From the human T2T-CHM13v2.0 reference genome, Homo sapiens: a stretch of 64,000 nt of DNA. Shown piece after piece: positions 42,701 to 45,700 of this stretch. Position numbers and translations under genes: made by a program. The notes below the pieces were generated by a model, which made no database searches, had not been told where the DNA came from, and saw nothing but the letters and a program-made list of their open reading frames with translations. The stretch is from the NCBI RefSeq assembly GCF_009914755.1, contig NC_060938.1. One strand, written 5' to 3'. How positions within the stretch are numbered: the first letter of the stretch is position 1; each line of letters opens with the position of its first letter.

Positions 42701-45700
42701 CAGCCAATATTTGAGGCATTTAAAATGCTTAACATAACACATTCTTTTGTTAATTATATTATTCTTACTTGCACTTTGCTCCAGCCTTTTCACCAACCTT
42801 CAAAAAGTTTTCGTAATTGATCATCGCTTCCTCTCCAATCATAGGTGGTGTCTGGTGTTTGTCCAGCAAAAACCATAAGTTCTTAAGAGAATTGTGGAAG
42901 TGAAGATGTTGTAAGTTAAAAACAACAAGATTTTAATATGTAGTTAAATGTGTGCTTTCCACTAAAATGAGAGTTTGTTGGCAGAGTCAATATTAAGATG
43001 AATCTCATGCCCTATTATCCTTTTGATTACTAACAATAAAAATAACATTTATTGAGTGCCTACTAAGCTTTTGATATACACTGCCTCTTTAATCCACATC
43101 TCTATGATATAGTTAGCTATCCCTACTTTAGAGATGATAATCGAAGCACAGAGATGTTAAGTCCATTGCCTAAAGTCATATAGCAGGGCTGGGATTTGAA
43201 CCTCTGTAGTCTGACCCTACAGCAGTGGTTCTCAACCTTGGCTGCACATTAGAATCACCTAGGGCCTTAAACAAAAATAACAAACAACACTATGTTTGGG
43301 GTACATGACCCATGCAAACTCAGCGGCTGCTTCTGGTGGGAACTGCTGCTTCAGAGCCTATGTAGTACCACTCTGTAGTACGGACTCCATTAGGCACCAA
43401 GAAATCCTGCATGATTTAAGTAGCACAAATGAGAAATGGTTAACATCTAAAGCAACTTTTTGCTTTGTTCTTACCTGTAATTCTTCATTATCTAACAGTT
43501 CTCTGCTTTTTCTTTGTAGAAAGACAGCTCTTGATTCCTCTCTTAATTTCTGTAGTAAGACTTCATCTTCAGCAGGCAGCTGAAAATACAAGGTAAATTT
43601 CTACATGTAAATTTTAGACTACTGGATCCTATAAAATGTATGTGGCCTCATAAAATAACTGTATGCCACCGCCTCGAATTATTTCTTGTATCTCACCTTA
43701 ATTGTGCTTAACATTTGTTTAACAAAAACTGATCCACAGAGAATCGGTGATCAGAAAGGCTGGATCTCTGCCCTGAAAAAGCCATTCTAAAAGCTAGTCT
43801 AGACCAAGTTTCATTTTATTTTCTTAAAGCACTGTGTTTCTATTGTCACCTTAGAATGACACAGAATTGGCTGGGCATGCTGGCTTCCTTAGAATGATAT
43901 AGAATTGGCTGGGGGCAGTGGCTCACACCCGTAATCCCAGCACTTTGGGTGGCCGAGGCAGGCGGATCATGAAGTCAAGAGATCGACCATCCTGGCCAAC
44001 ACTGTGCAACCCCGTCTCTACTAAAAATACAAAAATTAGCTGGGCATGGTGGCATGTGCCTGTAGTCCCAGCTACTCAGGAGGCTGAGGCAGGAGAATTG
44101 CTTAAACCCAGGAGGCGGAGGTTGCAGTGAGCTGAGATCACGCCACTACACTCCAGCCTGGCAACAGAGCGAGACTCCATCTACCAAAAAAAAAAAAAAA
44201 AAAAAGAATGATATAGAAGAATTAAATGAGGATTAACTGGAGATTGACAATTTCAAAACCACCTTTGCAAAATTATAACAGTGACAAAATGATGACAGTG
44301 AAAGAGATCTGACCTAACCAACTCCATCTTGTTTTTAACCTCCAATCTGCCCTTGGTCATTCCTGGGCATGGGCCAAGATATTAATAAATTTGGGAGAAA
44401 TTTAGTTTATGATTTAAATGATAATAGCTCATCCCAAAACTAAACTGCCTTTGTAAAACTAATGAAAGGACACCAGGTCAGGAGGATGCGAAGGACCAGA
44501 ATTCTGCTAAGATGCAGGTCAGTTAAATGATTAGCAGTTATTATTCCAGAGGGCACAAAAATTTGCAACATCCTCAATTACTCCTGTAAATAACATCACT
44601 ATTGTAGTACACAGGACTGGCCTTTTGAGATGTCTTTTCAGGCTTTTGCACTTCTGACTACCCAATGGCCCCTCTCAGACCAGCCACTCCTCTGTGGCCC
44701 CAACCCAGAAGCAGACTCAGCACGCAAGGACCAGGACTGTTTTTCTATATCCCTGTGATTCCATCCCCAACCAATCAGCAGTACCCATTCCCTAGCCCCT
44801 GCCTACCAAACTATCCTTGAAAAACCCTAGCCTCCAACTTTTCAAGAAGGCTGATTTGAGTAATAAAAAAACTCCTGTCTCCCATTTAGCTGGCTCCATG
44901 TATATGAAATTATTTCTCTCTTGCAATTCCCATCTTGATAAATTGGCTCTATCTGGGTAGCAGGCAAGAAGAACCTGTTGGGTGGTTCTTACCTGTAATT
45001 CTTCCTGTCCAGCAAAAACCATTTATTCTTCTTGTCCAGTTTTAGGAAAGCATGCCTGTTGAGATTGGATCACCTTTCTTCTTGGAGACAGTCAAGGCAG
45101 TGCCTATTATGTTGGCCTCCCAGGCAAGAGGGTTTGCCAACTGGGGTGATTTCCATGAGCAGAGCTTTAGAATGATTCATTCCAACCTGACTTAGAACAA
45201 TTTGCTTTATTTCTTCTTTTTTAAATTAATAATAGAGGCAGGGTCTTGCTATGTTGCCCAGGTTGGTCTTGAAGTCCTGGACTCAAGCAGTCCTCCCACC
45301 TTGGCCTCCCAAAGTGCTAGGATTACAGGCATGAGCCACCACACCCAGCCAGAATAATTTACTTTAAAGAGTTCTTCTTCCTTTTCTACATCTTAGCCCC
45401 ATTAAATTACCTCGGTAAACCTTACGTCAAAACTTGGGGTTATGGTTTTCATCTTTCATTTCCAGGAACTAAGATGCCATCCCTCCCATCAGAAGGAACA
45501 GAGTTAAAGGAGTATAAACCAAAAATAAAATTCTAAGGCCCCCCAACCATCTGAATGGACTTCCTCCTCAGTCAGCGCCCTTAAAATTTAACCTGAGAGA
45601 CTGTTTCAGGGCATGATGGGAAGTGGGGGTCAAACATGCCTCGTTATACCTCTCTGGCATTAACATCAACACAGACTTTAAGTCTAATAAGAAACATTTT

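What the first reader, a model, noticed from the sequence alone, without database searches (positions are those of the whole stretch)
44985..45040. Chimeric insert copying both ends of PPP2R3C intron 3, creating a candidate in-frame microexon
Seen: at the 3' end of the LTR8-like element, 44985-45004 (gttcttacctgtaattcttc) is a 20/20 copy of the exon 3 donor junction at 43467-43486. After one C, 45006-45022 (tgtccagcaaaaaccat) is a 17/17 copy of exon 4 sequence at 42860-42876, 5 nt inside its acceptor. The new junction then recurs imperfectly (attcttcttgtccag). The two sources are about 600 bp apart in DNA but nearly adjacent in spliced mRNA, and the intron ends share gttctta (42879-42885 and 43467-43473). 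On the transcribed strand the insert reads ...tttttgctggacAG|GAAGAATTACAG|GTAAGA, a 12-nt phase-0 cassette (EELQ, 44993-45004) carrying the genuine exon 3 donor, in intron 2 between two phase-0 exons. Inference: a template-switching repair scar (Pol theta-like), possibly templated by the gene's own transcript or a splicing intermediate, that moved a working splice site into an intron.
Basis: partly seen in the sequence, partly recalled or inferred. Interest (0 to 1): 0.85.

Follow-up and report, generated by a model that had tools for sequence, protein, structure and literature searches.

The report
Repair scar that transplanted a splice donor
A short patch of DNA in an intron of human PPP2R3C was copied from two nearby exon edges during an ancient repair event, and the splice signal it carried is now the end of an annotated alternative first exon of the gene.

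Summary
44985-45004 equals 43467-43486 (20/20) and 45006-45022 equals 42860-42876 (17/17). Each string occurs only at those two places in the whole 3.1-Gb assembly.

The patch is not LTR sequence. No related LTR copy aligns past 44987. 7 of the 9 copies aligned to that point then carry three terminal bases that this copy lacks.

The 4-nt target-site repeat ATTT (44250-53) recurs at 45021-24, exactly where the second copy ends. So about 33 nt (44988-45020) replaced the last 3 LTR bases.

The junction between the two copies (44998-45012) matches the flank at 45025-39 in 14 of 15 bases. The flank's two 7-mers each have one other same-strand copy within 3 kb, and those are the two sources.

Best reading: serial microhomology-guided template switching (TMEJ/MMBIR-like), DNA-templated.

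The hub's gene table lists a PPP2R3C exon 44993-45815, ending at the copied donor. It has no AG upstream, so it is a first exon. The copied ATG opens a 401-aa in-frame ORF behind 19 upstream ATGs.

The 12-nt microexon and an RNA template are unsupported. This is a new instance of a known mutation type, with an unusual consequence.

The parts
44254..44987 (+). Solo retroviral LTR (family name not verifiable here). This copy lacks the three terminal bases that other copies carry.
   Evidence: 41 non-self genomic matches at 74-80% identity (75-80% for the 39 long ones), none reaching past query position 688 = window 44987; 9 of 19 fetched copies align exactly to 44987, and 7 of those 9 continue with ACA before unrelated flanks; copies start two bases before the position aligned to 44256.
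44250..44253 (.). Left copy of the putative 4-nt target-site duplication (ATTT).
   Evidence: Of 6 copies testable by script, 3 have an exact 4-nt duplication, against 0 of 6 in an offset control. By eye, L002, L006, L009 and L020 also have one.
45021..45024 (.). Right copy of the putative target-site duplication (ATTT). It is the only ATTT in 44988-45100, and it begins inside the last 2 nt of the exon 4 copy.
44985..45004 (+). Copy of the exon 3 / intron 3 junction: exon 3 last 12 nt plus intron 3 first 8 nt. Its first 3 nt (GTT) are also the LTR's own bases.
   Evidence: 20/20; only 2 occurrences in the genome.
45005..45005 (+). Single C between the two copies. The flank 15-mer has T at the matching position (45032).
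45006..45022 (+). Copy of exon 4 nt 6-22.
   Evidence: 17/17; only 2 occurrences in the genome.
45025..45039 (+). Flank 15-mer matching the copy-copy junction 44998-45012 in 14 of 15 bases. Inferred to be original host flank and the third template. It holds ATTCTTC and TGTCCAG.
   Evidence: each 7-mer has exactly one other same-strand copy within +-3 kb, at 43480 and 42860, which are the two sources.
43467..43486 (+). Source 1: the 5' splice site region of exon 3. It is intact at its own place.
42860..42876 (+). Source 2: inside exon 4, 5 nt from its acceptor. It is intact at its own place.
44993..45815 (-). Annotated alternative first exon of PPP2R3C (823 nt). Its 5' splice site (GT at 44992-44991) is the copied donor, identical to the exon 3 donor from -12 to +8.
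   Evidence: Hub gene table ('exons of other transcripts 44993-45815'); the two bases upstream of 45815 on the minus strand are AA, not AG, so it is a transcript start and not an internal exon; the donor strings are identical.
45020..45022 (-). ATG brought in with the exon 4 copy. It is out of frame in exon 4. Here it is in frame with the copied EELQ and with exon 3.
   Evidence: a 401-aa ORF beginning [10 protein letters not shown] and continuing in the canonical frame, with 19 ATGs upstream of it in the exon; the context has T at -3 and G at +4, with an in-frame TAA directly upstream.
45515..46096 (.). Second interspersed repeat (about 585 bp). It contains the start of the alternative exon (45815) and lies inside the RefSeq 'enhancer' 45497-46278.
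   Evidence: 39 non-self genomic matches at 82-88% identity covering about query 475-1056.

Best explanation
This is a germline repair scar made by serial, microhomology-guided template switching. The mechanism resembles polymerase-theta end joining or MMBIR/FoSTeS, and these tools cannot tell those apart.

Inferred order of events:
1. A break arose at the junction between a solo LTR and its host flank in PPP2R3C intron 2.
2. The broken 3' end, which had lost the last 3 LTR bases, primed on GTT next to the exon 3 donor 1.5 kb away and copied 17 nt.
3. Its new end, ATTCTTC, paired with the same 7-mer in the other broken end's flank and copied 8 nt.
4. Its new end, TGTCCAG, paired with the same 7-mer in exon 4, 2.1 kb away, and copied about 10 nt.
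5. It returned to the flank at AT(TT) and the break was sealed.

Net result: about 33 nt (44988-45020) in place of 3 nt.

Consequence: the patch carries a full copy of a constitutive 5' splice site (-12 to +8) and an ATG. Transcripts starting at 45815, inside an upstream repeat, now splice from this donor, presumably to exon 3. This gives the annotated alternative first exon 44993-45815 and a possible 401-aa N-terminally altered protein.

Shown: the copies, their uniqueness, the LTR end, the microhomologies, the annotated exon end and the ORF.
Inferred: the order of steps, that the flank is ancestral, the enzyme, and that the ORF is translated.
For: - Exact copies: 20/20 and 17/17. Each is unique to source and copy in 3.1 Gb. 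Chance expectation is 2e-8 and 9e-7, and shuffles gave at most 15 nt against the observed 20.
- The sources are still in place, so the sequence was copied and not moved.
- No LTR copy aligns past 44987: 0 of 41 genomic matches and 0 of 19 fetched copies. Of the 9 copies aligned to 44987, 7 then carry ACA, which is absent here. So there is a 3-nt loss at the break.
- The family makes 4-nt target-site duplications: 3 of 6 testable copies by script, 0 of 6 in the control. This locus's ATTT reappears only at 45021-24, abutting the end of the second copy.
- The junction 15-mer matches the flank 15-mer in 14 of 15 bases.
- The flank's two 7-mers have exactly one other same-strand copy each within +-3 kb, and those are the two sources.
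- Both copies are in direct orientation.
- Literature: germline human templated insertions with up to five templates, and microhomology of 2-12 bp at 80% of junctions in a tumour sample (PMC8421209, passages read). Repeated aborted synthesis by polymerase theta creates longer microhomologies for the next round (PMC7165422, abstract and passages).
- Donor use: the hub table lists exon 44993-45815. There is no AG upstream of 45815. The donor is identical to the exon 3 donor.
Against: - The templates lie 1.5 and 2.1 kb from the break. Polymerase-theta insertions are described as locally templated, with tracts rarely above 10 bp (PMC7165422). The MMB-TI search looked for templates only within 100 bp (PMC8421209). 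The first tract here is 17 nt.
- That the flank is ancestral rests on a 4-nt repeat, and the LTR's first two bases here are CA where most copies have TG. Any ATTT within 60 nt would occur by chance roughly one time in three. Only its exact position is telling.
- Two coincidences are unexplained. The break is exactly at the LTR/host junction. Both templates lie at the two ends of one intron.
- One mismatch (C/T) between the junction and the flank needs a polymerase error or a later substitution.
- No orthologous sequence, read data or second human assembly could be consulted.
Confidence: 0.65

Rival explanations
1. The same kind of scar, but longer. The 15-mer at 45025-39 is not original flank. 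It is a local re-copy of the newly made junction, so the insert is about 52-55 nt (44988 to about 45039). The two distant pieces were then joined without microhomology, with one untemplated C.
For: The 14/15 repeat at a 27-nt spacing is what local direct-repeat templated insertions look like (PMC7165422). The target-site argument rests on 4 nt only.
Against: It needs ATTT to fall by chance exactly at the end of the exon 4 copy; this is the only ATTT in 44988-45100. It leaves the choice of the two templates unexplained. In the three-template model they are the only same-strand partners of the flank's 7-mers within 3 kb.
Confidence: 0.15
2. RNA-templated repair. The broken plus-strand end copied the gene's own unspliced pre-mRNA, which has minus-strand sense and would be the right polarity as a template. 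The two pieces were close because the spliceosome pairs the two ends of intron 3.
For: Both templates lie at the two ends of one intron. The break is in the same transcription unit. Polymerase theta can reverse transcribe RNA (PMC8195485, title and one-line abstract seen). RNA-derived patches at breaks are described in human cells (PMC5110952, sections 5 and 9 read). Transcript RNA steers end joining (PMC11390984, abstract).
Against: There is no RNA signature. The first piece crosses an unspliced exon-intron junction. There is no exon-exon junction and no poly(A). The pieces are in permuted order relative to the transcript, so template switching is needed anyway. DNA microhomology already accounts for the template choice.
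Confidence: 0.06
3. Filler made when the retrovirus integrated. The right end of the viral DNA was joined to the host by end joining with templated filler, not by integrase. That would explain why the scar sits exactly at the LTR terminus.
For: The scar is exactly at the LTR/host boundary and only 3 terminal bases are missing.
Against: A 4-nt target-site repeat is present, as expected of normal two-ended integration. The copies differ from their sources at 0 of 37 positions and from the flank at 1 of 15. LTR copies of this family differ from this one by 20-25%. With about 11% change per lineage, 0 of 37 has a probability of about 1% (my arithmetic; it assumes this LTR is as old as the family).
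Confidence: 0.07
4. The patch works: a 12-nt in-frame cassette exon (EELQ, 44993-45004) spliced between exons 2 and 3.
For: It preserves the frame between two phase-0 boundaries. The donor is identical to a constitutive one. An AG lies directly upstream.
Against: It is not in the RefSeq table, which uses this donor only for the 823-nt exon. The pyrimidine fraction upstream of the AG is 0.50, lowest of the set; the 12 true acceptors range 0.60-0.85. The sequence upstream is purine-rich.
Confidence: 0.07
5. Nothing happened here. The matches are chance, or part of the LTR, or an assembly error.
For: None found.
Against: as above. An annotated exon ends at the copied donor, which argues that the sequence exists in transcripts.
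Confidence: 0.01

Closest known systems
Germline templated insertions by microhomology-mediated template switching (MMB-TI / MMBIR, FoSTeS). PMC8421209, passages read.
   Same: A short insertion copied from intact nearby templates. Several templates are used in one event. There is microhomology of 2-12 bp at the switches, a small loss at the break, and no gross rearrangement. It is fixed in the germline.
   Different: The templates are 1.5 and 2.1 kb away, not within the 100 bp searched there. The copied pieces are splice-site and exon sequence of the host gene, and one is now used as a splice site.
Polymerase-theta end-joining scars (locally templated insertions after aborted synthesis). PMC7165422, abstract and passages read.
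   Same: Repeated rounds of annealing, short synthesis and dissociation. Each round makes a longer microhomology for the next. The tracts are AT-rich, and one tract is copied from the other broken end.
   Different: Two of the three templates are not in the break's own flanks. The first tract is 17 nt, whereas that paper says tracts are rarely above 10 bp. Dependence on POLQ cannot be tested.
Class 2 templated sequence insertion polymorphisms (RNA-derived patches at breaks). PMC5110952, sections 5 and 9 read.
   Same: A patch from transcribed sequence. The patch has no poly(A) and no target-site duplication of its own. It shows microdeletion and microhomology at the junctions.
   Different: The templates are in the same gene, a few kb away, not in distant regions. 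There is no sign of an RNA intermediate. It is not known to be polymorphic.
Short-range template switching that creates new functional elements, e.g. de novo miRNA hairpins. PMC10710096 and PMC5453318, search listing and abstract starts only.
   Same: One complex mutation delivers a ready-made functional sequence in a single step.
   Different: Those events are described in their abstracts as short inverted copies made locally. Here the copies are direct, distant and multi-template, and what is delivered is a splice donor plus a start codon.
Repeat-initiated alternative first exons (general knowledge, recalled).
   Same: The alternative exon starts inside an interspersed repeat that RefSeq flags as an enhancer (hub table).
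   Different: The splice donor comes neither from the repeat nor from point mutations. It comes from a copied constitutive donor of the same gene.

Membership tests
Templated insertion by template switching (TMEJ / MMBIR type) | The inserted bases are identical to another stretch of the genome, which remains intact | tested here: met
   20/20 and 17/17. The sources are in place. Each string occurs exactly twice in the genome.
Templated insertion by template switching (TMEJ / MMBIR type) | Microhomology at the switch points | tested here: met
   GTT (3 nt, 7 of the 10 bases ending at the junction match, read by eye), ATTCTTC (7), TGTCCAG (7), AT (2). The two 7-nt values hold only if the flank 15-mer is ancestral.
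Templated insertion by template switching (TMEJ / MMBIR type) | Small loss of original sequence at the break | tested here: met
   The three terminal LTR bases seen in 7 of 9 end-aligned copies are absent.
Templated insertion by template switching (TMEJ / MMBIR type) | Template close to the break (break flanks, or within 100 bp as in the published searches) | tested here: not met
   The templates are 1,518 and 2,146 nt away by start-to-start spacing. Only the third, 8-nt tract is local.
Templated insertion by template switching (TMEJ / MMBIR type) | Dependence on POLQ or on break-induced replication factors | not testable with these tools
   This is a historical germline event.
RNA-derived patch (class 2 TSIP) | Evidence of an RNA intermediate (spliced junction, transcript-contiguous order) | tested here: not met
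   The first piece contains an unspliced exon-intron junction. The pieces are in permuted order relative to the transcript.
L1-mediated retrocopy / processed pseudogene fragment | Poly(A) tail, a target-site duplication of 5 bp or more around the insert, TTTT/A nick site | tested here: not met
   There is no A-run in or after the insert. The only repeat around it is the LTR's own 4-nt one.
Cassette microexon | Observed or annotated inclusion between the flanking exons | tested here: not met
   The hub table lists 44993-45815 only, and no 44993-45004 exon. No read data were available.
Cassette microexon | Usable acceptor and donor, frame preserved | tested here: inconclusive
   The donor is identical to exon 3's and the frame is preserved. 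The acceptor's pyrimidine fraction is 0.50, below all 12 true acceptors. No splice-site scoring model was available.
Alternative first exon | Annotated exon with a 5' end that is not an acceptor and a 3' end at a GT donor | tested here: met
   Hub table. AA, not AG, lies upstream of 45815. GT is at 44992-44991.
Alternative first exon | Promoter activity at the start site | not testable with these tools
   The only indication is that 45815 lies in a repeat flagged as an enhancer by RefSeq (hub table).
Solo retroviral LTR | Many dispersed copies with shared termini and short target-site duplications | tested here: met
   41 non-self matches. The copies share a start and an end. There is a 4-nt duplication in 3 of 6 testable copies. 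The family name 'LTR8' was not tested.

The most novel reading that the evidence does not exclude
The patch was copied from the gene's own nascent pre-mRNA while intron 3 was held in a spliceosome. That would be why both pieces come from the two ends of one intron. It would be a natural germline record of RNA-templated break repair that reads spliceosome-paired sequence and can move splice sites within a gene.
Probability: 0.06. Interest if true: 0.85.

Novelty: new member of a known kind. Interest (0 to 1): 0.5.

Why it matters
New exons are usually explained by point mutations that create splice sites, or by sites latent in transposons. Here a single repair event appears to have delivered two things into an intron, next to a repeat that starts transcripts: a ready-made constitutive donor (-12 to +8), and a start codon in frame with it.

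The annotated gene model uses that donor. This is a concrete, testable example of templated-insertion scars acting as a source of gene-structure novelty.

It also suggests a simple genome-wide search: look for exact copies of splice-junction k-mers inside introns of the same gene. My two literature searches found no description of this event or of this route to a new donor. They were narrow and did not cover supplements.

PPP2R3C itself matters in development. A review of phosphatases in congenital disorders mentions it 14 times (PMC9608770, search listing only). An N-terminally altered isoform would therefore be worth knowing about, if it is translated.

Tried and rejected
- Orthologues: no tool holds primate genomes, so the event could not be dated and the pre-event state could not be seen.
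- I tried to recover the pre-event flank from paralogous copies. The right flank 45005-45229 is single-copy in the genome: 1 match, which is itself, at E<=10.
- Searching protein databases for the 401-aa isoform was left out. That protein is a spliced, joined sequence which I may not type, and the contiguous part is only 10 residues.
- A literature search for the 10-residue N-terminus gave 0 papers.
- PPP2R3C isoform papers: 63 hits, 15 listed, 2 opened. They mention an XM_005267782.3 isoform QTL and two unnamed novel isoforms, and say nothing about this exon. Their supplements were not opened.
- Rejected as origins: a circular-RNA back-splice, an intron lariat, or a single cDNA. The junction is at internal exon positions, not at splice sites, and the order is permuted.
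- Rejected: deletion of intron 3 between the two GTTCTTA repeats followed by insertion. That would give the opposite order of the pieces.
- I did not run a multiple alignment of the LTR copies. That tool prints a consensus, so I compared only the ends, pair by pair.
- No splice-site scoring model was available. Acceptor strength was judged by pyrimidine fraction only.
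Full report
**1. What is in the sequence**

On the plus strand, 44985-45004 is identical to 43467-43486 (20 of 20). 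45005 is a C. 45006-45022 is identical to 42860-42876 (17 of 17).

PPP2R3C is on the minus strand. The first source therefore spans the last 12 nt of exon 3 and the first 8 nt of intron 3. The second is nt 6-22 of exon 4.

The 15 bases across the junction of the two copies (44998-45012) recur at 45025-45039 with one mismatch.

**2. It is not chance and not a repeat**

- The composition-based expectation of such matches within 3 kb on both strands is 2.2e-8 for the 20-mer and 9.4e-7 for the 17-mer.
- In 1000 mononucleotide shuffles the longest exact match to the 56-nt stretch was at most 15 nt, against 20 observed.
- In the whole 3.1-Gb assembly each string occurs exactly twice, source and copy, with no hit for the reversed control.
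- Of 40 annotated exon boundaries in the window, 3 have a second exact 16-mer copy. Two are these sources and one is a (GAA)n run.

**3. It is not part of the LTR**

A search of the genome with 44300-45060 gave 41 non-self matches. The 39 long ones are 75-80% identical and the two short fragments 75 and 77%. None extends beyond query position 688, which is window 44987.

Of 19 fetched copies, 9 align exactly to 44987 and none aligns further. 7 of those 9 continue with ACA and then unrelated flanks. Most of the others show the same ending a few bases after their alignment stops.

So the LTR here stops at 44987 and lacks its last three bases. GTT at 44985-87 is both LTR sequence and the start of the first copy.

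**4. Where the insert ends**

The copies start two bases before the position aligned to 44256, so the LTR here starts at 44254. Its first two bases are CA, where most copies have TG and two have TA.

The family makes 4-nt target-site duplications.
- By script, 3 of 6 testable copies have one, against 0 of 6 in an offset control.
- By eye, four more copies do.

The four bases before this LTR are ATTT (44250-53). The only ATTT in 44988-45100 is at 45021-24, overlapping the last two bases of the exon 4 copy.

I infer the following.
- 45021 onward is original host flank.
- About 33 nt (44988-45020) replaced the three terminal LTR bases.
- The 15-mer at 45025-39 is ancestral, not a re-copy.

This rests on four bases and is the weakest link.

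**5. Mechanism**

The flank 15-mer holds ATTCTTC and TGTCCAG. Within 3 kb each has exactly one other same-strand copy outside the insert, at 43480 and 42860. Those are the points where the two distant copies end and begin.

This fits four rounds of annealing and short synthesis.
1. GTT anneals, then 17 nt are copied at the exon 3 donor.
2. ATTCTTC anneals, then 8 nt are copied on the other broken end.
3. TGTCCAG anneals, then about 10 nt are copied in exon 4.
4. AT anneals and the strand returns to the flank.

Imperfect matches extend two of these sites (families D5 and D9). The C/T mismatch needs a polymerase error or a later substitution.

This pattern is described for polymerase-theta end joining, where aborted rounds create longer microhomologies for the next round (PMC7165422, abstract and passages). 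It is also described for MMBIR-type templated insertions in the human germline, with up to five templates. In a tumour sample, 80% of junctions there had 2-12 bp of microhomology (PMC8421209, passages).

It differs in two ways. The templates are 1.5 and 2.1 kb away, whereas those studies describe or search local templates. The first tract is 17 nt.

The order of steps, the enzyme and the cause of the break are inferred.

**6. RNA template?**

A plus-strand 3' end could in principle copy the pre-mRNA, which has minus-strand sense. Several papers bear on this.
- Polymerase theta can reverse transcribe RNA (PMC8195485, title and one-line abstract).
- RNA-derived patches are known (PMC5110952, sections 5 and 9).
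- Transcript RNA steers end joining (PMC11390984, abstract).

Nothing in the sequence asks for an RNA template, though.
- The first piece is unspliced.
- The pieces are in permuted order relative to the transcript.
- Back-splice, lariat and single-cDNA origins do not fit the junction positions.

What remains curious is that both templates sit at the two ends of one intron.

**7. What it does now**

The hub's RefSeq table lists a PPP2R3C exon 44993-45815. Its 3' end is the copied donor, with GT at 44992-44991. The 11-nt strings (-3 to +8) compared are identical to those of the exon 3 donor, and the full -12 to +8 identity follows from the 20/20 match.

The two bases upstream of 45815 are AA, not AG, so this is a first exon. 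Its start lies inside a second interspersed repeat at 45515-46096. That repeat has 39 non-self genomic matches at 82-88% identity, and RefSeq flags the region as an enhancer.

I spliced this exon to exons 3-13 by coordinates; the hub table does not name its splice partner, so exon 3 is my assumption. The ATG at 45022-45020 came in with the exon 4 copy, where it is out of frame. Here it opens a 401-aa [13 protein letters not shown] followed by the canonical protein from exon 3 on.

Several features argue against efficient translation.
- Nineteen ATGs precede it in the exon.
- Its context has T at -3 and G at +4.
- An in-frame TAA lies directly upstream.

Translation is therefore doubtful. I could not see which coding region RefSeq assigns to this transcript.

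**8. The microexon**

The 12 nt would preserve the frame, but no such exon is annotated. The 20 nt before its AG are 50% pyrimidine, below all 12 true acceptors of the gene, which range from 0.60 to 0.85. I put its use at well under 10%.

**9. Age**

The copies differ from their sources at 0 of 37 positions and from the flank at 1 of 15. This LTR differs from its relatives by 20-25%.

If the LTR has changed by about 11% since insertion, 0 of 37 has a probability of about 1% (my arithmetic). The scar is therefore probably younger than the LTR. That argues against filler made at integration, even though the scar sits exactly on the LTR/host junction.

**10. Limits**

- No primate orthologues, no second human assembly, no RNA reads and no repeat library were available.
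- The right flank is single-copy, so paralogues could not reveal the pre-event state.
- Literature searches for this exon, its peptide, or donor birth by templated insertion found nothing relevant. They were few and did not cover supplements.

**11. Verdict**

- The repair-scar reading is supported and sharpened to three templates, with the flank as the bridge.
- Donor transplantation is supported by the annotation.
- The microexon and the RNA template are not supported.
- It is a new instance of a known mutation class, with an unusual and testable effect on gene structure.

Noticed in passing
window 45515-46096 (some genomic copies align to about 46104): A second interspersed repeat of about 585 bp, with 39 non-self genomic matches at 82-88% identity, many on the X chromosome. 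It holds the start of the PPP2R3C alternative first exon (45815, minus strand). It also holds the acceptor of the last exon of lncRNA LOC101927178 (45812, plus strand), three bases apart, and it lies inside a RefSeq enhancer. On the minus strand it may begin with TG at 46104-46103, as an LTR would, in the same orientation as the gene. Family not identified.
   Followed up: partly
window 43849-43913 and 44205-44218: A 14-nt direct repeat (43891-43904 = 44205-44218, 100%) flanks an Alu with its A-tail at 44187-44206, and is presumably its target-site duplication. In addition, 27 nt spanning that repeat and the Alu's first bases occur twice in tandem, 38 nt apart, at 93% identity (43849-75 and 43887-913). 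This is a small duplication across the Alu's 5' junction (families D7 and D8).
   Followed up: no
window 44987/44988: The scar's left edge is within 3 nt of the exact LTR terminus, and the target-site repeat is intact on the other side. A random break in a roughly 6-kb intron would rarely fall there. No model here explains it.
   Followed up: partly
window 13956-13978 and about 5999-6020: The last coding exon of FAM177A1 starts with a (GAA)7 run. The reverse complement of the same run occurs near 6000. This is a simple repeat and not a templated copy.
   Followed up: yes
window 43520-43592 versus 43475-43579: According to the hub table, an exon of lncRNA LOC101927178 on the plus strand overlaps PPP2R3C exon 3 on the opposite strand.
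   Followed up: no
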